Assembly (NCBI GenBank): GCA_965206645.1
Contig: CBDBKE010000002.1
Span: 160,001 to 224,000, forward strand
Origin: Terriglobia bacterium
GTDB taxonomy: Bacteria; Acidobacteriota; Terriglobia; JAJPHL01; JAPKYU01
Length of the DNA stretch: 64,000 bases
Direction: 5' to 3'
Shown in pieces: positions 49,759 through 59,587 of this stretch. The notes under the pieces were generated by a model. That model saw nothing but the letters and a program-made list of their open reading frames with translations. It was not told the origin of the DNA and made no database searches. The position numbers and the translations under genes were made by a program. Each line of letters starts with the position of its first letter. The first letter of the stretch is position 1.

Positions 49759-51038
49759 TGACCTGCCTGGCGATTTCCGGACCAGCTGAAGCCTGAGAGA
49801 ATGGCGCCCTCGGAGAAACGAGGGAGCCATGAAGAAGACCCGGTTTACCGAAGAGCAGATGGTGACGATCCTCCGCGAGGCCGATCAGCGGCCCGTTCCG
49901 GAGGTGGCCAAAAAGAACGGCGTCAGCGCCCAGACGCTCTACGCCTGGCGGAAACACTTCGGCACGTTGGAGCCCGCCGATGTGAAGCGGCTGCGGCAGC
50001 TCGAGCAGGAGAACGGCCGGCTGAAAAAGATGGTGGCCGATCGAGATCTGGAGATCGACGTGCTCAAGGAGATCACCCGAAAAAAATGGTAGGCGCACGC
50101 GTGCGCCGGCCGCAGGTCGCGTATGCACGTGCACGCGGTCTGTCGGGTCGCCGCGCGTGCGCCTTGCTCTCCGTCGCACGGTCCACGCTGGGCTACCAGT
50201 CGCGGCTGGTCGACCGGGATGCCCCGGCGCTGGCCGCGATGCGTCGTCTGGCGGCGCAGTATCCGCGGTACGGCTATCGCCGGATTCGGATTTTCCTAAA
50301 ACGCGAAGGGCACACGATGAGCACGGACCGGACCCATCGCCTCTGGCGCCAGGCGGGGTTGCAGGTGCCTCGGCGGCGGCCGCGGCGCCGGGTCGCCCTG
50401 AGCCGGCCCCGCCCGGTGCCCGCCACTGCGGTCAATCACGTCTGGGCGTACGACTTCGTGTTCGACACCTGCGCGAATGGGCAGACGCTCAAGTGCCTCA
50501 CCGTCGTCGACGAATGGACCCGCGAGTCACTCGCGATCGACGTGGCCGGCGGCATTCGGTCCGGGCGCGTTATCGAGGTGCTCACGCAGCTCGTGAGCGT
50601 CCACGGAGCCCCACGTTACCTCCGGTCCGACAACGGCCCCGAGTTTGTCGCGGGTGCGATTCTCCGGTGGCTGCTCCAGGCGCAGATCGAAACCGCGCTC
50701 ATCGAGCCGGGCAAGCCGTGGCAGAATGCGACCGACGAATCGTTCAACGGGAAGTTCCGCGACGAGTATCTGAGCCTGCAGTGGTTTCGGAACCGCGTGG
50801 ACGCGAAGGTGGGGATCGAGCAATGGCGACGGCACTACAACGACGTGCGACCGCACTCGAGCCTTGGCTATCTGACGCCAGCCGAGTTCAAAGCGCAGCT
50901 CCGTGCTGGCTCGGATGACGGTGGGCGCTCGCCGGCGATGCCGGCTCACGCTGACCAAGAAGAACACGAGAGCGACTTAACCATGCCGACTGGCGCTGTT
51001 CTCCAGTAATCGGTGGTCCGAAGAAAGCCGGCAGGTCA
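49759..51038 (+). mobile_element. IS3-family insertion sequence (IS407-group-like), 1280 bp
   Basis: TG...CA ends with imperfect IRs TGACCTGCC...CGGACCA; 4-bp target duplication ATGA at 49755-49758 and 51039-51042. Confidence 0.95.
49829..51009 (+). CDS. IS3 transposase OrfAB (programmed -1 frameshift)
   Basis: OrfA 49829..50092 (KTRFTEEQ HTH), A7 run at 50080-50086, OrfB with WAYDF, SDNGPEF and ESFNG DDE motifs. Confidence 0.93.
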
Positions 51039-52714
51039 ATGACATCACCAATTTTGTGCACTACATCAGGCCGGAGTCCAGAGTGTTTATTGTGGGCGCG
51101 GGAGGCGGAAGAGACATCCTCTCGGCCCTGGTGTTCGGGCAGAAGTCGGTTTTAGCCGTCGAGATCAACGAGGATATTATTGACGCAGTCAATGGTCGGT
51201 TCGGGGACTTCACCGGTCATCTCGACCGGATTCCCCGTGTCACGTTCGTCAACGATGAGGCCCGGAGCTACATTGCCAGGCACCAGGAACAGTTTGATAT
51301 TATTCAAGCTTCCCTGACTGACACCTGGGCGGCAACGGCTGGCGGCGCTTTCGTGCTGACTGAAAATTCGCTTTACACCGTCGAGGCCTGGAAACTTTTC
51401 TTCGACCGAACGACCAGCCGTGGAGTTCTCAGCTTCTCCCGCTGGCATCATCGTGATTATCCAGTTGAGCTGTATCGACTCACCTCCTTGGCCTCTGCGT
51501 CATTGGCGCAAACCGGAGTGGAGGATCCCCGGAAGCACATTGTCATCGTAAGGCATCTCCCCGCGGCCCAAGTGGAGGCCGGAATCGGCACGATGCTGGT
51601 GAGCAAGGTGCCGTTTACTCCGGAAGACCTGGAGACCATCGAAGATGTGTCTCGGAAGCTCAGGTTCGAGGTGGTTCTCAGTCCGAGATTCTCTCTCGAC
51701 ACCACCTTTGCAACACTGGCTACAGGAAAAGGACTGGATCAGTTGGCTGCCACTTTCCCTTTCAATATCGCGCCGCCCACGGATGATAGCCCTTTCTTCT
51801 TTCAAGTGTCGCGGCTTCGTGATGTTAGCAACTTGAAGCTGCGGCAGCTGAACCCGTCGCGGTATCTGACCGCAGGAACGCTGATCCTGGGAATTCTGCT
51901 CATCACTGTGCTGGTGCTGACTTGCCTTGCGATTGTTGTCCCGCTTTGGCTGGCCCGCGGCCAGGCGCCACTCAAGGATGCGATTCCACTGCTTCTGTTC
52001 TTCGGCGCTATAGGATTTGGCTACATGTTGGTGGGAATTTCACAAATGCAGAGGCTCATTATTTTTCTCGGACATCCGACTTACAGCCTTTCCGTTGTCC
52101 TCTTTACCATGCTTTCGTCCAGTGGCGTGGGTAGCTTCCTTACAAGGAAGCTCGACAACCCAGATTTGGAAAAATCAGGGCAGCGCCGTCTTCTCTTGCT
52201 GCTCTGCACTCTGGTGCTTTTTGGGTTGCTCGCGCCGCAATTCATTCGCCTGTTCCACGACTCCGTCACGCCAGTCCGAATTCTGGTGGCGAGTGCAATC
52301 CTCTGCCCGATTGGACTGTTCATGGGGATGGCCTTCCCTCTCGGAATGAAGGCAGCCTCCAAGGGGTATGCCGAGTTGACACCCTGGCTGTGGGGAATCA
52401 ACGGAGCTACCTCGGTATGCGCCTCGGTGCTTGCGGTCGCGATCGCTCTGCAGTTCGGCATTTCCAAGGCTTACTGGAGCGGCTTTGCATGGTACTTGGT
52501 CGCTTTTCTGGCCTTCGCTTGGATAGTGCGAACAAAGCGCCAAGGATTTCCCTAAGCTGGCATGGTAGGCTTTTCGTAAACGGCATCCCGGCTACCGGCC
52601 GAGCCACTGCCGCGCTACAGTAGCCGAGTCCGATCACCGCATGTTTGCCGGCAGGCATCCCCGGCGCTCTCGGGCGTCCGGGTCCCCTGCTCTCTCTCCC
52701 CGACGCCTTCCACG

Positions 52715-53125
52715 TTAGGGGGCAGTGGCCGCCGACCGGGCCAGCGCGCGCAGGATGCCGCGGGTGAGGTTGAAGTCCTCGGCCATGGCGTCGTAGAACT
52801 CCTGCTGGTCCAGTTGCAGCGCGAGGGTCGGCTGGGTGGCCCTGGCCGAGTCCGGCTGGGGCTGATCGGCCAGCATGGCGAGTGCCCCCACCTCGGAAGG
52901 GGGGGCCAGCTTTTCCGTCTCCTGTCCATTCCGCAGCAGGACCACTTCGCCCTCCATCAAGGTAAACATACTTTCGGCGGCGTCGTTCTCCCGGTACAGC
53001 AGACTGCCCGCCTCATAGCGAACCTCTTGGGCCAAAGCTGCCAGCCGGGCCAGGCTTTCGGTAGGGACCTCATGGAAGAGGGGGACTTTCTGCAGGATAT
53101 TCACCTTCTCGAGGACAGTCAGCAT
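52715..53125 (-). CDS. Cyclic-nucleotide-binding domain protein
   Basis: EKVNILQKVPLF, cNMP barrel, degenerate phosphate cassette (GALAML...PDS). Confidence 0.85.
   Translation of the reverse strand: MLTVLEKVNILQKVPLFHEVPTESLARLAALAQEVRYEAGSLLYRENDAAESMFTLMEGEVVLLRNGQETEKLAPPSEVGALAMLADQPQPDSARATQPTLALQLDQQEFYDAMAEDFNLTRGILRALARSAATAP
52737..52779 (+). repeat. Direct repeat copy 2 (inside the 3' end of the cNMP gene)
   Basis: Near-identical to 48717..48758. Confidence 0.85.
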
Positions 53126-53143
53126 GGCGATCCTTAAGTGGCC

Positions 53144-55644
53144 TCAGCTAGTGGCAGCAGGAGCCAGCCGGGCGTTGGTCCACTGCCAGGTCTCTTCGAG
53201 CAGCGCATCGCCGGCGCGGGAGACGTGGGGTAGGTCGGCGGACAGCTCTGCCAGACGAGCTTCGCCGACCGCGTGCAGGGCGCAGGCGCGCAGCCAGCGG
53301 TCCTCCGAGTGGAGCAGGATGCGCAGGGCCTCGGCTGCTGAGTCCACGCTGGTGCGGACAAGCTGGCGGGCAAAGCCAAGCTTCTGCTGCAAGGTCATCT
53401 CGGGATCCAGCACGTAGGCCAGCGGGCGGTAGAGGTCGGTGCGGAGCAGGTTTTCCAGCACCTCCAGGGCGTTGGCCTGGAGCTGGGGGCGCGGAGAGGC
53501 CAACCCGACAAAGGCGTTGTGGATGTCGCGGGGCGGATACAGTAGAGCCAGCAGGCGGAAGATGCGCTCCAGTTCGTGATCCATGCGCTCGCGCAAAGCT
53601 CGGGAGAGCAATGGTTCGCTGCCCGGGGCCCGCGATGCGGTGCTGGCGCGTGGGTCCACGGCAGCCAGGATCTGGAAGGAGCGGTAGTAGCCCATCAGCT
53701 CGGCCCGCAGCACGTCTTCGCGCTCCGCGTTGGGCACCAACAGCGCCGGATGCGAGCGGCGAAGTTTATTCATGGCTTTCAGCACGTCATAGCGCAGCCC
53801 GGGCTCGCCTTGGATGAGGCTGCTGGCCAGCACCGCGGCCGCCTGCTGGCTGGGGATGCTGGCCAACACGCCAGGGATTTGCTTGCGGACGGGCAGCGGG
53901 ACGTCCTCGTCGTTGAGGTGGTCCTGCAAGGTGCCCACAGCGCGCTCGCCGTACTGAGCTAGAGCAGCGCGGGCGGCGGAGGCCAGGCGGCGCCGTCCCA
54001 GCTTCTCAATGATCAGCGGCAGGTACTCAAAGCGTTGGATGTTGCCGGCGCTCAGCAGCGCGTGCCCGGCCACATCAGGGTCGTCATCACGCAACAGGTT
54101 CAATAGCTCGGAGTGAAGGGGAGAGGGCGCCGGAATTGTCCCCAGCACGCGGGCAGCTTCGGTGCGCGCGCGCGCTGGCGAACGGCAGGCGAGAGATGTC
54201 CGAGCAAACCGCGGAGCATGGGGTGGTGGCCGGGCTGGCCCCCCACCTCAAACAGGCTTAGCCCGTACAAGATTTGCTGCTCGTCGCCCTGTTCCAGTGC
54301 CAGCGCCAGCACCCCGGTCGTGGTGGCGTCCAGTATGCCGGTAGCGGTGCGTTCCGGATCCAGGGCGTGACGCTCGATGGCCCGCCGCAGCACGTTCAGG
54401 TATTCTTGCCGGACACCGTACGCGATGCCGATCCAGCCCGTCAGGAAGACAAAGTTAACCACGCTGATGCGGCCGGGACTGAAGTGCAGCAGGTTGGCGA
54501 AAACCCACAGCACCAGGCCCGCTGCCCCGTCGGCGACCCGGTACATAAAAATGTCGAGAAACGACTTGATCTGGCTCTTGATGTCGGGCGCCATGGGCAG
54601 GTAGAGCAGTTCGGTGCTGGAGCGATCCAGGGAGTAGAGCAGCAGATTGTGGCTGCCGCGGAGCACCACCACCGAAACCAGGGTGGGAACCAACAACACG
54701 AGCATGCTTCCCGCCAAATACACGAAAGGCAGGATCAGCAGGGTGACCCGGATGCCCAGGGAGCGTAGCAAACGTCCGGTCAGAATCAGTTGCAGCAAGA
54801 AGGAAGCCACGCCCATGTAGCCGTAGAATTGGCCGAAGAAAGCGGTCAGCGCAGCCTTGTCCGTCCCGTAATGGGCCTTGGCAATGACCTTGAATTGATA
54901 GCCAATGATGGTGGTGGACACCGAGCCAATCACGATCAGCGCGGTAATCAGCAGCAAATAGCGGGAGCCACGAAGCAGCGCCAGGCTCTCGAGGAGGTTC
55001 TTCGGGGACTGCTCGCCCGCGCTCGGGGTCGCATCCAGGCCAGCAAGCCGTCGCCGCGTCTTCCCGAACAAGATCTTGACCAGCGGCATGCACATTCCCA
55101 GCGAAACGGCCATGGCCAGCAGCAGCGTCTCGGAGCGCACGTACCGTGTCGCCGCATTCGTAAAGAAGCCGCCGAAAATCCCGCCCAGGATGGCGCCGGC
55201 GCCGATGAAGCCAAAGACTCTCCGGGCTTGCCGCGTGGTCAGCACGTAGTTGGCCATCGTCCATCCCGTCGCCGTGCCCACCACCGCCGCCGTGTACACC
55301 CAAAGGTAAATCAGCACGTAAACGAACTTGCCGGGCAGGTGCGTCAGCCACCAAAACAAGAGAAAAGACAGGGAAAAGAACAGAAGCGATCCGGTGATCA
55401 ACCGTTCCAGCCGTAGCCGGTGCGACAGGCGGATGTAGACCCAAACGAAGAGGCCGCTCGACAGCGCCGTACCCATAATCACGTGGGGCAGGTAATTGGG
55501 AAAAGCGTTCAGGAACAGGGCGTCGCCCACCGACTGCCCCATCATGTAGAAGGCGATCACCAGAAACAGGTAGAGGAACAGCAGCAGGGCCGGCGCGAAC
55601 TCGTGGCGGCGCACGTTTAGCGCTTTTTCAAGGTAGCCGATCAT
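53144..55644 (-). pseudogene. Npt1/Npt2 (TLC) nucleotide transporter-like domain fused to HEAT repeats; frame break near 54165-54175
   Basis: Multi-TM MFS-like domain (QARRVFGFIG.G...GG, YSLDRSSTELLYLP) followed by HEAT-like repeats; the frame switches at a CG dinucleotide run. Confidence 0.75.
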
Positions 55645-55911
55645 GACCGTCGGGAGGCACAAGGCCGGGCCGCGGTGGTGGAAATCCGGAATGGACGCTT
55701 TACCACAATAGAGGCCCGTTCGTGGCGTCGGCGTCAATCTAATCTGCTCCCTTTTGGATTGCAAGTGTATCCTGAGTCCAAGTTGCCACTTCGGCTGGCA
55801 GCTTTCGCCGGTGCCGCTGAGCCAGGTAGAAGTCCAGCGTTGCCGGACGACGCCAAAGGCGAGTAAAGTTCATCCCAGCAGGCAGACCTGCGCAGTTTCA
55901 GGAAGAGCTCG

Positions 55912-56715
55912 ATGTCGTGCCGTCCTTCAGGAGCGTTGCTCGGGGCCGCGCTGGCCGGCCTGGTCGCCGCCGGCTTCCTGGTTGCTGCGGAAGAGCCGAA
56001 CCTTACCCCAGAGCGAACACGACAGTTCCTGCTGAGGGCCAAAGTGATCCGCAGCCGGCAGCTCAGCCGAGGCATCACCGCTCCATGGCGGCTGACGCTG
56101 ACGGACGGCACGCTGACGCACGACGCCGCCTTCCAGTCCGTTGACGAACGCAAGCTCACCGGCCACACAGAGCCAAACTTCCGCGACTCCTACCACTTCA
56201 ACATTGCCGCCTACGAGCTAGCCAGGCTACTCGCCCTGGGGCACATGATGCCGGTGACAGTGGAGCGCAAATGGGCCGGCAAGACCGGCGCGCTGAGCTG
56301 GTGGGTCACCTTTAAGTGGCACGAGCGGGATCGCTTTCTGAAAAAGCTGCGGCCGCCCGACCCGGAAGCCTGGGACCAACAGATGTACAGGGTGCGGGTG
56401 TTCTCCCAGCTCGTCTATGACACCGACCGCAACCTGGGAAACCTGCTGATCACCGAGGACTGGAAGCTTTGGATGATTGACTTTACGCGCGCCTTCCGCT
56501 GGCATCACGAGCTGCGGAGACCCAAGGACCTAGTTAAGTGCGACCGGCAGTTGCTCGAGAAGCTGCGCCAGTTGAGCGCGGCCGAAGTTCGGGAGAAGAC
56601 GCGGCCCCACCTGAACGCACCGGAAGTCAAAGCCCTGATCAAGCGGCGCGACAAGATCGTGGCGCGCTTCGAGAAGCTCATTGCTCAGAAGGGCGAGGAC
56701 CAGGTCCTGTACTGA
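55912..56715 (+). CDS. Secreted atypical kinase-fold protein (PI3K/PI4K/Fam20-like motifs)
   Basis: Signal peptide, IAAYELARLL...PVTVER, DTDRNLGNLLI, MIDFTRAF. Confidence 0.6.
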   Translation: MSCRPSGALLGAALAGLVAAGFLVAAEEPNLTPERTRQFLLRAKVIRSRQLSRGITAPWRLTLTDGTLTHDAAFQSVDERKLTGHTEPNFRDSYHFNIAAYELARLLALGHMMPVTVERKWAGKTGALSWWVTFKWHERDRFLKKLRPPDPEAWDQQMYRVRVFSQLVYDTDRNLGNLLITEDWKLWMIDFTRAFRWHHELRRPKDLVKCDRQLLEKLRQLSAAEVREKTRPHLNAPEVKALIKRRDKIVARFEKLIAQKGEDQVLY

Positions 56716-56885
56716 TTCCTCCGCAGATTCGGCAAAGACTTCAAGCCACGCAACGCTTGACGGCGCGCGATGTTGCTTGACAGGCAGAAGTCCCCATGAT
56801 AGAAGAACTTATAAGCGTCGTCCTCGGGGACGCACGGGCTGGTTCGTCGGCCTCGCTCGTCAGGACCGAGTTAGCCACTCTCGTC

Positions 56886-57173
56886 ATGAAGACCAACGTA
56901 ACCCGGACCGCTATGCAGGTGGCCGCGCTTATGGCTGGGTTGGCGTTGCTCGTCATCACCACCGCTGCCTCCTCGCCGGGCCTATTTCATGGTGACGATT
57001 TCAACCACTGCTGCGAGTTTTGTCACCTGGGGCATGTACCCATTTTGAAGCCGGTTCCTCGCGTCACCTGCCACGCGCCTCCGCTACAAGTTTCTTCTCT
57101 CGGAATTGAAACTGCCGGAGCACCCGATTCCTTCTCCGCCGTTCCCCGCGCCGCCCGCTCTCCTCCTGCATAG
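56886..57173 (+). CDS. DUF2946-like small membrane protein/uORF
   Basis: N-terminal TM, H..HCCEFCH, Pro-rich linker, C-terminal RSPP. Confidence 0.65.
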   Translation: MKTNVTRTAMQVAALMAGLALLVITTAASSPGLFHGDDFNHCCEFCHLGHVPILKPVPRVTCHAPPLQVSSLGIETAGAPDSFSAVPRAARSPPA

Positions 57174-57307
57174 AACACTCTTCCATAGAACACTCTTCTT
57201 TGGTTTAGCTCTGGGGTTTTAGCTCTGGTTGTGTTTAGGGAATGCCGCCGACCACGGCTCGGTAGCGGGAGCGTTTGCCTCGAATGAAGGCCAAGCAGGA
57301 TGAGTTG

Positions 57308-59587
57308 ATGCTTCTTGCCAAACGCCTATTCTTTGTTTTGACGGTTGGAATCTTCTGTTTCTTCCCTTATGCCAGCCTCAACGGCCAGCCTCACGGCTCC
57401 ATTGAGGGACGAATCATCCTAGCTAACACCGGAGAGGCGCTCGATCGAGCTGCGGTGGTGATTGTCGAGCTGGGACGCACGGCGACCACCGATGAGGAAG
57501 GCCGCTACCGCTTCGACCAAGTTCCTCCAGGCAGCTACCGTTTACTGGTCCACCTTGACAGCACCTTAACGGAAGAGACCCGGAGCGTGGAAGTGAAGGC
57601 CGGTGTGGTAGTCACCGCGAATTTCGCGCTTGAGGTCGCCCCCGAGCGGTATGAACTCACGGTCACTGCCAGCGGACGCAAGGAAACAGCCTTTGAATCC
57701 TTTCAGAGCGTCACCTTGCAGACTTCGTTTGACATGGCGGACTCAATCGCGCCGGGGATCGGCGAGGTCCTGGCTGGCCGGCCCGGCAACGGCATTGCCG
57801 CACGCAGCTTCGGCCCAGGCAACTCGCGGCCCATCGTGCGCGGATTTGACGGGGACCGCGTACTGATTATGCAAGATGGGATTCGTACCGGAACTCTTTC
57901 CTCGCAGTCGGGCGATCACGGAGAGCTGATGAATACGGCGGCTCTGGACCGGGTGGAAATCGTGAAGGGGCCTGCGACTCTGCTTTACGGCAGCAACGCT
58001 CTGGGAGGAGTGGTCAACGCCATCACACGCCATCACGCGGTACACGTACACCCACACGCAGGTCTGCGAGGCCACGTTTCCGCCACTGGGGGCTCAGCCA
58101 ACGCGTTTGGCGGCAGCACGGGTGGTTTCGAGTATGGGATCGGTAAATGGATGATCTGGGGCGGTGGAGGCGGCCAGCGAAGTGGAGACTACAGCACTCC
58201 GGAAGGCAAAGTCTTTAACTCCGGAACCCGCGTGGCCAATGCCTACGGCGGTGTTGGCTGGTATGGAAACAGGAATTTCCTCAGCTTTGGCATCCACGTA
58301 GATGACGGCGTTTACGGTGTGCCGTTTGCTGAACAGTTCGGGGCCCACGAGGAGGAAAGCGAGGACCCCAAAGAAAGAGAAGTTGAGAGAATCGAGCTGG
58401 ACTCGCGGCGCCAGTCCTATCAGTTCAACTGGCGCCTTCGCAAGATGGGTTCGGCAATCGACAACTTTGCCCTGAAGCTGAATTTTACCCAGTGGGAACA
58501 CGACGAGATTGGGATTTTCACCGATGGCGGGCGCGAGGCGGGAACCAACTTCAACCAGGAGCAATTTGTTTACCGGGGTTCTTTTGAGCAATCCAAACTC
58601 GGTCCGCTCACCGGGCGGTTTGGGTTCTGGGGTCTGGCTCGGGATTACGACGTCCGCGGGGAGGAAGCGCTTTCCCCTCCGGTGGACCAGAACGCGTTTG
58701 CTGTGTTCGGGCTCGAGGAACTCAAGTTCGAACGAGTCAAGCTCCAGTTCGGTGGTCGACTGGAGAGGACCAGCTATCAACCAAAGGTGCTGGTGGGCAA
58801 CCAACTTGCACTTGGATTGCCGAAGCGCACGTTCACCGGAGCTTCGGCGGCGGCCGGCGTCCACCTCGGCTTATGGCGGGACGGCGCCCTGGTGGTCAAC
58901 TATGCCCATTCGTCCCGCGCGCCGGCACTGGAAGAGCTCTACAACTTCGGTCCTCACGTTGGCACCCTCTCCTTTGAAATCGGCGATCCAGATCTCTCGA
59001 CCGAGATCGGCAACGGTGTGGAGGTCTCGCTTCGCCAGAGGGGCGGCAGGGCGCGGGGCGAGCTGAACTTTTTCTATTACAACTTCGACAACTTTGTTTT
59101 CCCGTTCGCCACCGGTGAGGTCGCGGAGGGTCTGCGCGTCATCCAGTTCACCCAGCTCGATAGCCGCTTCCTGGGAGCGGAGGTGAACTTGGACTTCGGG
59201 CTTCATAACAACCTATGGCTGAACCTGGGGATGGATCTTGTGGACGCGCAAGAAACAGTCAATAACAACCCCTTGCCACGCATCCCGCCGCTTCGCGGCA
59301 GGGTGGGTTTTGACTTCCGCTATCAGGGCCTGAGTGTAAGGCCGGAAGTAATCCTAGCCAATAGCCAGCACCAAACCTTTGGCGGAGAGTCGCGGACGCC
59401 TGGCTACACCGTGGTCAACCTGAAGGCCTCCTACACGATTGCACGAAGGCGTATTGTGCATCAGTTCGCGGTGAATGTCTTCAACATCGCCGATCGGCTC
59501 TATCGAAATCACACCTCTTTCATCAAGAACTTCGCGCCGGAAATTGGGCGTGGAATTCGCTTTACGTATCGGATTCGATTCTTCTGA
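57308..59587 (+). CDS. TonB-dependent receptor (ZnuD-like metal uptake)
   Basis: Carboxypeptidase-regulatory-like N-terminal domain, SRPIVRG, SGDHG, VEIVKGPATLLYG...GGVVN, GPH, C-terminal Phe; start could be 57284. Confidence 0.9.
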   Translation: MLLAKRLFFVLTVGIFCFFPYASLNGQPHGSIEGRIILANTGEALDRAAVVIVELGRTATTDEEGRYRFDQVPPGSYRLLVHLDSTLTEETRSVEVKAGVVVTANFALEVAPERYELTVTASGRKETAFESFQSVTLQTSFDMADSIAPGIGEVLAGRPGNGIAARSFGPGNSRPIVRGFDGDRVLIMQDGIRTGTLSSQSGDHGELMNTAALDRVEIVKGPATLLYGSNALGGVVNAITRHHAVHVHPHAGLRGHVSATGGSANAFGGSTGGFEYGIGKWMIWGGGGGQRSGDYSTPEGKVFNSGTRVANAYGGVGWYGNRNFLSFGIHVDDGVYGVPFAEQFGAHEEESEDPKEREVERIELDSRRQSYQFNWRLRKMGSAIDNFALKLNFTQWEHDEIGIFTDGGREAGTNFNQEQFVYRGSFEQSKLGPLTGRFGFWGLARDYDVRGEEALSPPVDQNAFAVFGLEELKFERVKLQFGGRLERTSYQPKVLVGNQLALGLPKRTFTGASAAAGVHLGLWRDGALVVNYAHSSRAPALEELYNFGPHVGTLSFEIGDPDLSTEIGNGVEVSLRQRGGRARGELNFFYYNFDNFVFPFATGEVAEGLRVIQFTQLDSRFLGAEVNLDFGLHNNLWLNLGMDLVDAQETVNNNPLPRIPPLRGRVGFDFRYQGLSVRPEVILANSQHQTFGGESRTPGYTVVNLKASYTIARRRIVHQFAVNVFNIADRLYRNHTSFIKNFAPEIGRGIRFTYRIRFF

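What the first reader, a model, noticed from the sequence alone, without database searches (positions are those of the whole stretch)
52715..56715. Nucleotide-transporter/HEAT plus cNMP genes facing a secreted kinase-fold protein: possible periplasmic phosphorylation system
Seen: an Npt/TLC-like transporter fused to HEAT repeats, a stand-alone cNMP-binding gene, and a divergent signal-peptide protein with DTDRNLGN and IDF motifs. Known: TLC carriers exchange ATP/ADP; Fam20- and CotH-type kinases act outside the cytoplasm; the periplasm normally lacks ATP. Inference: the carrier could supply nucleotide to an exported kinase under cNMP/HEAT control. The positions expected for the catalytic Lys and Glu appear to be Q (AAFQSVD) and N (YHFNIAAY), so it may be a variant or a pseudokinase.
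Basis: partly seen in the sequence, partly recalled or inferred. Interest (0 to 1): 0.72.

Follow-up and report, generated by a model that had tools for sequence, protein, structure and literature searches.

The report
Exported kinase-phosphatase pair with nucleotide carrier
An exported bacterial protein with the fold of animal secretory-pathway (Fam20) kinases is inherited together with an exported protein-phosphatase-like enzyme and a membrane nucleotide carrier, which points to an undescribed phosphorylation system outside the cytoplasm, though the carrier gene is broken in this genome.

Summary
On the minus strand lie a TLC/NTT-like carrier with HEAT repeats and a separate cNMP-fold gene. 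Facing them is a 267-aa protein (KL, 55912-56715) with a signal-peptide-like N-terminus and the motifs DTDRNLGN and IDF.

KL sits near an NTT-HEAT gene in 51 of 75 related loci. The new result is a third partner: an exported Shewanella-like PPP phosphatase (X). X precedes the carrier in 43 of 75 loci and is often fused to KL. It occurs in exactly the same 31 of 121 sampled Acidobacteriota genomes as KL, and all 31 also carry an NTT-family gene.

My best reading (about 0.45) is an extracytoplasmic phosphorylation/dephosphorylation cycle fed by the carrier. No activity was tested.

In this genome a real 280-bp deletion splits the carrier gene, X is unlinked, and the cNMP fold lacks the canonical ligand-contact residues.

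The parts
55912..56715 (+). KL: exported Fam20/PI4KII-like kinase-fold protein, 267 aa, of the Gln75/Asn97 type. Asp92, Arg119, Asp172, Asn177 and Asp190 are conserved.
55912..55989 (+). Signal-peptide-like N-terminus of KL (residues 1-26). The proposed cleavage is after VAA, just before the conserved EPNLT block.
   Evidence: Sequence and alignment. The region has pLDDT below 50. The h-region heuristic is met in 67 of 75 relatives.
55645..55911 (.). 267-bp divergent intergenic region between the carrier gene and KL.
   Evidence: No sigma-70-like site was found.
54100..55644 (-). 5' piece of the NTT-HEAT gene. It holds the complete TLC/NTT carrier domain and the first HEAT repeat, then 23 out-of-frame codons and a stop.
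   Evidence: Pfam TLC. It aligns to residues 1-537 of the 973-aa orthologue at 95% identity. The family profile hits solved ADP/ATP carriers 9j3n (5.7e-24) and 9j3j (1.6e-22).
54165..54178 (.). Junction of a ~280-bp deletion at a (GC)n microhomology. It removes about 92 codons (two HEAT repeats) and shifts the frame.
   Evidence: Contigs from three runs of three studies cross it without gaps.
53144..54148 (-). 3' piece of the NTT-HEAT gene: a HEAT-repeat ORF of 334 aa with a possible GTG start.
   Evidence: Pfam HEAT_2. It aligns to residues 630-973 of the orthologue at 97% identity. pN/pS is 0.14 against L001.
52715..53125 (-). Stand-alone cNMP-binding-fold gene, 136 aa, 18 nt downstream of the HEAT ORF.
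   Evidence: Pfam. Orthologues and forms fused to the carrier.

Best explanation
KL belongs to a conserved three-part envelope module.
- KL is an exported kinase-fold enzyme homologous to the Fam20 secretory-pathway kinases.
- X is an exported Shewanella-like PPP phosphatase.
- T is an inner-membrane NTT-type nucleotide carrier with a cytoplasmic HEAT (plus or minus cNMP-fold) tail.

Proposed mechanism, all of it inferred:
- T exchanges cytoplasmic ATP, or another nucleotide, for periplasmic ADP.
- KL uses that nucleotide to phosphorylate a periplasmic or envelope substrate, either protein or glycan.
- X removes the phosphate.
- The cytoplasmic tail of T gates the supply.

What is shown: the fold and homology of each part, export signals on KL and X, their fusion, and their synteny and phyletic co-occurrence.

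In this genome the module is altered. T is split by a 280-bp deletion and X lies on another contig.
For: Fold and homology of KL:
- Foldseek puts Fam20 on top at E about 1e-8.
- The 75-sequence profile hits Fam20A at 4.5e-10, DrFam20C1 at 1.5e-5, hFam20C at 3.1e-5 and the xylosylkinase at 5.6e-5.
- In that alignment D190 pairs with the Fam20A Asp that is Asp430 by the chain offset. The offset is anchored on Gln258 and Asp430 from PMC5413348 (passages). This residue is the DFG Asp.
- D172, N177 and D190 are kept in 81 of 84 KL ORFs of the genome loci; 2 of the other 3 are partial ORFs.

Extracytoplasmic location:
- 67 of 75 relatives have an N-terminal h-region.
- P0214 is Pkinase(15-259)-TM(589-607)-KL(914-1165).
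- X proteins and X-KL fusions begin with hydrophobic leaders.

Identity of X:
- It has the PPP motifs.
- This genome's own X hits the Shewanella cold-active protein-tyrosine phosphatase 1v73 at 1.3e-42.

Linkage:
- Of 75 KL-centred genome loci, 51 hold T and 43 hold X, and all 43 with X also hold T. X and T are 300 bp or less apart in 39.
- X-T-KL or KL-X-T operons, and X-KL fusions next to T, occur in metagenome loci.
- 16 of 20 longer KL proteins examined are X-KL fusions.

Phyletic pattern in 121 Acidobacteriota genomes at least 90% complete:
- KL is in 31 and X is in the same 31.
- An NTT-family match is in 49, including all 31.
- Within family f3, 1 of 8 genomes has all three parts and 7 have none.

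Identity of T: it is homologous to solved ADP/ATP carriers.
Against: - The canonical beta3 Lys is absent in this clade (Gln75). The partner position is Asn97, so ATP-dependent kinase activity is not assured.
- The N-lobe could not be aligned to Fam20 by sequence. The Lys assignment therefore rests on strand order and covariation. On the tree that covariation amounts to only about 1-2 events.
- NTT-HEAT carriers have no known substrate or direction (PMC5381601, passages).
- An outer membrane with porins would leak ATP (general knowledge).
- 24 of 75 KL loci lack T within the flank. Of the 45 loci with full flanks, 13 lack T. In 8 of 31 genomes none of the three genes are adjacent (hand tally).
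- 18 of 90 KL-negative genomes have an NTT-family match, so T is not restricted to the module.
- PPP relatives include Ap4A hydrolases, so X need not act on proteins.
- Only 2 of the 5 AF2 models had mean pLDDT above 70.
- In this genome T is split.
Confidence: 0.45

Rival explanations
1. KL is a non-catalytic, pseudokinase-like ligand or nucleotide sensor. It binds and regulates, or targets, the exported PPP phosphatase X. Nothing is phosphorylated outside the cytoplasm, and the carrier moves the ligand that KL senses or the product of X.
For: - The Lys/Glu pair is replaced by Gln/Asn in 54 of 75 diverse relatives and by a Q-type residue in 79 of 84 acidobacterial ORFs.
- The best sequence match in the PDB is the pseudokinase Fam20A. 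That protein binds ATP without catalysis and activates a partner (PMC5413348, abstract and passages).
- KL occupies the position of an extracellular sensor domain in Pkinase-TM-KL proteins.
- KL and X co-occur perfectly and are often fused.
Against: - The catalytic-loop Asp172, Asn177 and DFG Asp190 are essentially invariant across the Q/N, K/E and R/E types. This is unusual for a dead kinase.
- 17 of 75 relatives keep a basic/acidic pair.
- Q and N are themselves conserved rather than drifting.
Confidence: 0.25
2. The module scavenges or takes up nucleotides or phosphate. X hydrolyses extracellular nucleotides or dinucleoside polyphosphates. KL binds or re-phosphorylates nucleosides. T imports nucleotides, as NTTs do in intracellular bacteria.
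For: - Characterised NTTs are importers (PMC5381601, abstract).
- X has weaker similarity to Ap4A hydrolases ApaH and PrpE.
- A TonB-dependent receptor gene follows KL in this window.
Against: - The TonB receptor neighbour is seen only in the closest relative: of 75 loci it is found strongly in L001 alone.
- X is far closer to the Shewanella protein-tyrosine phosphatase (1.3e-42) than to ApaH (3.4e-4).
- A periplasmic kinase would still need a phosphate donor.
- No nuclease or nucleotidase genes recur in the loci.
Confidence: 0.12
3. This reading does not exclude the others. In this particular genome the module is no longer working as a unit. The split carrier gene and the unlinked X are stages of decay, and KL is a leftover.
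For: - A 280-bp frameshifting deletion lies in T. It is present in contigs of three runs from three studies.
- An IS3 element has truncated a gene 2 kb away.
- KL has the highest pN/pS of the four genes, 0.50.
Against: - Both halves of T, the cNMP-fold gene and KL are open. Their pN/pS against L001 is 0.14-0.50.
- The carrier domain itself is complete.
- Fissions of NTT-HEAT-cNBD proteins are known (PMC5381601, passages).
- X is intact elsewhere in the genome.
- pN/pS over the whole divergence cannot date the loss.
Confidence: 0.3

Closest known systems
Fam20 secretory-pathway kinases (Fam20C casein kinase, Fam20B xylosylkinase, Fam20A pseudokinase)
   Same: - Profile-level sequence homology runs through helix C, the catalytic loop, the DFG-like Asp and the C-terminal helices.
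- Both act outside the cytosol after signal-peptide export.
- Both depend on a membrane carrier for luminal ATP. For the eukaryotic case this is recalled knowledge.
   Different: - KL is bacterial and is about 240 aa without the Fam20 N-terminal segment and insertions.
- The window protein has no Pfam hit, and only 3 of 75 relatives reach E<=0.01 for PF06702.
- Gln/Asn replaces the Lys/Glu pair.
- KL is paired or fused with a PPP phosphatase.
- 'Bacteria' occurs only once, in a reference-list entry on another bacterial pseudokinase, in PMC7948968, and not at all in PMC5865150 (term searches).
Type II phosphatidylinositol 4-kinases; Pfam PI3_PI4_kinase and HipA_2
   Same: - 26 of 75 relatives hit PF00454 weakly and 18 of 75 hit PF20613.
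- The catalytic loop is DRxxxN-like.
- Some relatives are named 'Phosphatidylinositol 3- and 4-kinase' by JGI.
   Different: All hits are below or near the cut-offs. KL is exported rather than cytosolic. There is no evidence for a lipid substrate.
NTT-HEAT and NTT-HEAT-cNBD carriers (Major, Embley and Williams 2017, PMC5381601)
   Same: The domain order is the same. The separate cNBD gene a few nucleotides downstream (18 nt here) is exactly as that paper describes. The clade is widespread in free-living bacteria.
   Different: - The passages read give no function and no kinase or phosphatase neighbours.
- Here the carrier is linked to KL and X.
- In this genome the NTT and HEAT parts are separated by a deletion.
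Shewanella-like PPP phosphatases (Shelphs; cold-active protein-tyrosine phosphatase 1v73/2z72)
   Same: X has the GDxHG, GDxxDRG and GNHE motifs. It matches 1v73 at 1.3e-42.
   Different: X carries an export leader and about 100 extra residues. It is fused or linked to a kinase-fold domain and a carrier. The bacterial role of Shelphs is unknown (PMC535813, passages).
Other exported or atypical bacterial kinases: H. pylori CtkA, CotH, HipA
   Different: Each acts in a host cell, on the spore coat or in the cytoplasm. No carrier or phosphatase partner is known for them (recalled).
LpxT, periplasmic phosphorylation of lipid A
   Same: Phosphoryl transfer on the periplasmic side.
   Different: LpxT is a PAP2-type enzyme that uses undecaprenyl pyrophosphate, not ATP, as donor (PMC2229476, title and abstract in the listing). 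It is unrelated in fold.

Membership tests
Protein-kinase-like superfamily, Fam20/PI4KII branch | Bilobal kinase fold | tested here: met
   [not shown]
Protein-kinase-like superfamily, Fam20/PI4KII branch | Catalytic-loop Asp and Asn, and a metal-binding DFG-type Asp | tested here: met
   D172 and D190 are invariant and N177 is in 73 of 75. D190 aligns to Fam20A Asp430, equivalent to Fam20C Asp478. That D172 equals Fam20C Asp458 is recalled.
Protein-kinase-like superfamily, Fam20/PI4KII branch | beta3 Lys paired with a helix-C acid | tested here: not met
   The window has Gln75 and Asn97. In the family the pair is Q/N in 54, K/R+E/D in 17 and other in 4, of 75. An invariant Asp92 lies beside the position of the essential Glu of Fam20C in the HMMER alignment. 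Which acid is the true counterpart is not settled.
Pfam Fam20C (PF06702) | Score above the gathering cut-off | tested here: not met
   The window protein has 0 Pfam families. 3 of 75 relatives hit at E<=0.01. One tandem protein, P0123, scores 29.4 against a cut-off of 26.8.
Sec-exported protein | N-terminal signal peptide: n-region, h-region and a small-x-small cleavage site | tested here: met
   Own heuristic only, because SignalP was not available. 67 of 75 relatives pass, and 5 of the other 8 have the h-region but a non-ATG first codon. VAA|EEP-type sites are visible in alignment A1. There is no twin-arginine motif.
NTT / TLC nucleotide carriers (PF03219, TC 2.A.12) | TLC domain above the cut-off and homology to solved ADP/ATP carriers | tested here: met
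   45.3 bits against a cut-off of 21. The orthologues score 46-77 bits. The profile hits 9j3n at 5.7e-24 and 9j3j at 1.6e-22.
NTT / TLC nucleotide carriers (PF03219, TC 2.A.12) | Nucleotide transport and its direction; substrate-contact residues | not testable with these tools
   No paper on the 9j3j-9j3o structures was found in the library, so the contact residues were not compared.
NTT-HEAT(-cNBD) clade (PMC5381601) | One polypeptide, NTT then HEAT, with the cNBD fused or encoded just downstream | tested here: not met
   The orthologues meet it: 973 aa in L001, and about 1070 aa with the cNBD in L019, L024 and L027. In the window the gene is split by a 280-bp deletion. The cNBD gene 18 nt downstream is present.
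cNMP-binding domain (PF00027) | Domain score, and the phosphate-binding cassette Glu and Arg that contact the cyclic nucleotide | tested here: inconclusive
   The domain scores 53.4 bits against a cut-off of 27.5. At the cassette the window reads GAL...DSA, where the canonical motif (recalled) is GEL...R[ST]A. 11 of 14 aligned relatives lack the Glu.
Shewanella-like PPP phosphatases (for partner X) | [quoted passage not shown] | tested here: met
   The motifs are in the own-genome X and are invariant in A5 and A6. 1v73 at 1.3e-42 against ApaH at 3.4e-4. The motif definitions are from PMC535813.

The most novel reading that the evidence does not exclude
Diderm soil bacteria run an ATP-fuelled, reversible phosphorylation system in the periplasm. 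A Fam20-type kinase and a PPP phosphatase, often one polypeptide, act on envelope substrates. A dedicated NTT-type carrier exports ATP and retrieves ADP (+Pi). This would give NTT-HEAT carriers their long-missing function. It would also be a prokaryotic counterpart, or even ancestor, of the eukaryotic secretory-pathway kinase system. The conserved Gln/Asn replacement of the Lys/Glu pair would then mark a new catalytic variant of the kinase fold.
Probability: 0.3. Interest if true: 0.9.

Novelty: new variant of a known kind. Interest (0 to 1): 0.8.

Why it matters
- The periplasm is taught as a compartment without ATP and without kinases. A conserved exported kinase-fold protein that travels with a phosphatase and a nucleotide carrier challenges that view and gives a concrete, testable system.
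- It offers a first functional context for the widespread but uncharacterised NTT-HEAT carriers, which also occur in cyanobacteria, chlamydiae and oomycetes according to PMC5381601.
- It gives the same context to bacterial Shewanella-like PPP phosphatases.
- It identifies clear bacterial sequence homologues of the animal Fam20 kinases.
- The family is large: 3374 representatives at 50% identity have E<=0.001. None of the 120 best relatives carries a precomputed Pfam domain.

Tried and rejected
- **KL + X complex prediction.** The calls were 69, 72, 75, 79, 82, 84, 90, 93, 97, 99, 101-103, 105, 107, 110, 112, 114, 116, 118, 123, 124 and 129. Physical binding of KL and X is therefore untested.
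- **Fold of a fused X-KL protein.** The job (A3) had not finished. No result.
- **Narrow profile against the PDB.** The 33-sequence profile A1 gave only insignificant hits, E 0.54 and 1.2. The broader A2 was needed.
- **NCBIfam on KL.** Only sub-threshold hits: TIGR03843 at 28 bits against a cut-off of 172, and Kdo kinase at 19 against 142.
- **Ser/Thr kinase genes near KL.** They occur in 16 of 75 loci. I set this aside as about what chance would give if these genomes are as rich in such kinases as I recall. That density is recalled and was not measured.
- **Promoter and terminator scan of 52500-57400.** 0 promoter-like sites. 7 terminator-like sites against 4.1 expected, none of them at gene ends.
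- **RNA evidence.** Contigs of one metatranscriptome run cover only 54219-54544 and 54639-54693. This does not demonstrate transcription.
- **Earlier findings of this scan.** Three look-ups returned nothing.
- **Literature.** Searches for NTT-HEAT (3 papers), bacterial Fam20, periplasmic kinase or periplasmic ATP and NTT structures found no description of this module. Subscription-only papers and supplements were not seen.
- **pN/pS.** Cannot tell whether the split carrier still works.


Full report
**1. What is in the window**

The minus strand of 52715-55764 carries three ORFs.
- A TLC/NTT-like membrane protein at 54100-55764. Its likely start is the ATG at 55644. PF03219 E 7.2e-12, 45.3 bits against a cut-off of 21.
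- A HEAT-repeat ORF at 53144-54148. PF13646 E 8.8e-10.
- A 136-aa cNMP-binding-fold protein at 52715-53125, 18 nt further on. PF00027 E 2.6e-14.

Across a 267-bp gap, on the plus strand, lies a 267-aa ORF at 55912-56715, here called KL. It has no Pfam hit and only sub-threshold NCBIfam hits to TIGR03843 and Kdo kinase. Its N-terminus (MSCRPSG, a hydrophobic run, then VAA|EEP) looks like a Sec signal peptide. DTDRNLGN is residues 170-177 and IDF is 189-191.

**2. The carrier gene is broken here, and the break is real**

The TLC and HEAT ORFs are in different frames and overlap by 49 nt. A relative with 90% identical KL (locus L001) has one intact 973-aa NTT-HEAT gene.

The window matches residues 1-537 and 630-973 of that protein. 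At the DNA level about 280 bp of the L001 gene (nt ~1611-1890, two HEAT repeats) are missing. The ends are joined at a GCGCGC microhomology near 54165-54178, which shifts the frame.

Contigs of three public runs from three studies cross the junction without gaps. One of those runs may be the window's source. The other two differ from the window by 4 letters each over the stretch they cover. So this is a genomic deletion, not an assembly error.

The carrier domain itself is complete. The remaining HEAT part could start at a GTG. pN/pS against L001 is 0.31 for the TLC part, 0.14 for the HEAT part, 0.23 for the cNMP fold and 0.50 for KL. These values neither show nor exclude loss of function.

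**3. KL is an exported kinase-fold protein homologous to Fam20**

*Size of the family*
- 3677 of 8000 scored candidates have E<=0.001. The best 120 are 'hypothetical' with no precomputed Pfam domain.
- 3374 representatives at 50% identity have E<=0.001.

*Fold*
- An AF2 model built on 33 relatives has mean pLDDT 82.6 and pTM 0.79. Only two of the five models exceeded a mean pLDDT of 70.
- Foldseek puts Fam20C, Fam20A and Hydra Fam20 first (E about 1e-8, TMq 0.64-0.68), then PI4KII and Vps34.

*Sequence homology*
- A profile of 75 relatives (34-66% identical to the window protein) hits solved Fam20A at E 4.5e-10, DrFam20C1 at 1.5e-5, human Fam20C at 3.1e-5 and the xylosylkinase at 5.6e-5.
- The alignments cover helix C, the catalytic loop, the DFG-like motif and the C-terminal helices.
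- The narrower 33-sequence profile had found nothing significant.

*Location*
- 67 of 75 relatives have an N-terminal hydrophobic leader.
- One relative is Pkinase-TM-KL, the topology of a receptor kinase with KL outside the cell.

**4. The active site**

Asp172 and Asp190 are invariant in the 75 relatives, and Asn177 is present in 73.

In the HMMER alignment Asp190 pairs with the Asp of the Fam20A 'LDN' motif. I fixed the offset between chain index and residue number on Gln258 and Asp430. By that offset this Asp is Asp430, which PMC5413348 equates with Fam20C Asp478, the DFG Asp (passages).

Asp172 pairs with the Asp of 'NMDRHH'. Its identity with Fam20C Asp458 is recalled and comes from no call.

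Three things support this.
- In the model, residue 75 is on the third strand (69-76) and residue 97 is in the following helix (95-106).
- Across the 75 relatives the two positions covary: Q/N 54, K/E 10, R/E 4, K/D 3, other 4.
- The fused relatives are mostly R/E.

The limits of this evidence are as follows.
- On a quick tree the Q/N type is essentially one group: 53 of the 54 Q/N proteins fall in a single 55-protein group, plus one outlying sequence. The covariation is therefore about one or two events.
- The N-lobe did not align to Fam20 by sequence.
- The essential Glu of Fam20C (Gln258 in Fam20A) falls beside KL's invariant Asp92 in that alignment, not at position 97.

So the window's clade is a conserved Gln/Asn variant with an otherwise intact catalytic set. 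All 84 KL ORFs in the related genome loci carry Q or, rarely, V at position 75.

**5. The carrier link is real**

Of 75 KL-centred loci from other genomes (mostly Terriglobia MAGs), 51 hold an NTT-HEAT gene within the fetched flank. Among the 45 loci with full 8-kb flanks, 32 do.

The arrangements are:
- divergent, as in the window;
- NTT-HEAT(-cNBD) directly upstream of KL with overlapping stop and start (L019, L027);
- KL - X - NTT-HEAT - KL.

This genome has one copy of each gene in 4.4 Mb. A chance neighbour within 16 kb would be expected in well under 1% of loci (my estimate).

**6.

A gene cluster found in 43 of 75 loci is a 400-480-aa metallophosphoesterase, here called X. It lies directly upstream of the carrier gene.
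- It has an export leader and the PPP motifs GDVHG, GDxxDRG and GNHE.
- Its nearest solved relatives are the Shewanella cold-active protein-tyrosine phosphatases: 7e-33 for one X, and 1.3e-42 for this genome's own X. ApaH scores about 1e-3.

X and KL are often one protein. Of the 20 longer relatives examined:
- 12 have an N-terminal Metallophos domain, and 4 more are 5'-truncated pieces of the same architecture;
- 2 are Pkinase-KL;
- 1 is a tandem KL;
- 1 is KL-TPR.

Metagenome loci show X-T-KL operons (for example L099, L105, L137, L144), KL-X-T (L114, L142, L160) and fused X-KL next to T (L082, L084, L089). Of the 27 loci of at least 8 kb, 13 hold all three genes. Both Q/N-type and R/E-type or K/E-type KL proteins occur with X or T.

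**7. Phyletic pattern**

I searched 121 Acidobacteriota genomes of at least 90% completeness.
- KL is found in 31.
- X is found in 31, and these are the same 31 genomes.
- An NTT-family match is found in 49, including all 31. This tally includes the unpublished genome G048, which is KL-negative.

My hand tally of the printed coordinates gives the following.
- A match spanning NTT and HEAT occurs in 26 of the 31 KL-positive genomes, against about 7 of the 90 others.
- KL and X are fused or at most 2 kb apart in 17 of 31.
- KL and T are at most 10 kb apart in 13 of 31.
- In 8 of 31 no two of the three genes are adjacent.

In family f3, one of eight genomes has all three genes and seven have none. 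Related genomes are not independent, so no statistical test is given.

In the window's own genome X is intact but lies on another contig (G000:C3).

**8. The cytoplasmic tail**

T is homologous to solved ADP/ATP carriers (9j3n at 5.7e-24, 9j3j at 1.6e-22).

The architectures NTT-HEAT, NTT-HEAT-cNBD and a separate cNBD gene a few nucleotides downstream are already described, with function unknown (PMC5381601, passages).

The cNMP fold of this clade lacks the canonical cassette residues. The window reads GAL...DSA where the canonical form is GEL...R[ST]A (motif recalled), and 11 of 14 aligned relatives lack the Glu. The ligand may therefore not be cAMP or cGMP.

**9. Interpretation**

Shown:
- three families of known fold;
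- export signals on two of them;
- fusion, synteny and a perfect KL-X phyletic match.

Inferred:
- the carrier supplies nucleotide across the inner membrane;
- KL transfers phosphate to an extracytoplasmic substrate;
- X reverses it.

An ATP-for-ADP(+Pi) exchanger would balance such a cycle. That NTTs carry Pi along with ADP is recalled knowledge.

I put this reading at about 0.45. The rivals are:
- a non-catalytic KL that regulates X (0.25);
- nucleotide or phosphate scavenging (0.12);
- decay of the module in this particular genome (0.3), which is not exclusive of the others.

**10. Novelty**

I found no description of this module in searches for NTT-HEAT, bacterial Fam20 relatives, periplasmic kinase or ATP, or in a 2026 survey of new kinase-like families (passages). 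'Bacteria' occurs only once, in a reference-list entry on another bacterial pseudokinase, in one Fam20 paper, and not at all in the other (term searches). Subscription-only literature and supplements were not seen. The earlier notes of this scan held nothing.

The parts are members of known families. Their combination, and the Gln/Asn active-site variant, are new.

Noticed in passing
window 49801-52555: An IS3-family transposase gene (49801-51009, NF033516 E 1.3e-67) sits directly before a spermidine-synthase-like membrane protein ORF (51056-52555, 499 aa). That ORF equals residues 387-884 of the 885-aa orthologue in L001 at 94% identity. The first 386 codons are missing, so the gene appears truncated by the insertion.
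   Followed up: partly
window 57275-59587 (and 56796-57173): A TonB-dependent receptor gene with a CarboxypepD_reg domain follows KL. The best NCBIfam hit is ZnuD-like and far below its cut-off. Among the 75 related loci this neighbour is strong only in the closest relative, L001, so it is not part of the conserved module. In L001 one ORF matches both the 125-aa ORF 56796-57173 and the receptor.
   Followed up: partly
own genome G000:C3:851131-852090 (locus L077:1078-2214, minus strand): This genome's single copy of the exported Shewanella-like PPP phosphatase is intact at 378 aa. It is unlinked to KL and the carrier, and lies next to a beta-propeller-like gene and a possible OMP decarboxylase-like gene.
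   Followed up: partly
genomes G045:C23:40174-48880 and G115:C207:3453-12666 (coordinates): Some Acidobacteriota have expanded clusters. One has five tandem KL genes after X and a split carrier gene. Another has KL - carrier - carrier - KL - KL. KL copy number per genome ranges from 1 to 11 matches.
   Followed up: no
proteins P0214 (1167 aa), P0219/P0272: Ser/Thr protein kinases occur with a transmembrane segment and a C-terminal KL domain. KL therefore sits where extracellular sensor domains of receptor kinases sit.
   Followed up: partly
window 52715-53125 and alignment A7: The cNMP-fold proteins linked to these carriers mostly lack the canonical Glu and Arg of the phosphate-binding cassette (motif recalled). 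Three Blastocatellia-type relatives (L006, L014, L017) keep the Gly-Glu.
   Followed up: partly
window 54219-54693: Contigs of one metatranscriptome run (X19) cover parts of the carrier ORF with one mismatch. This hints at transcription but does not prove it.
   Followed up: no
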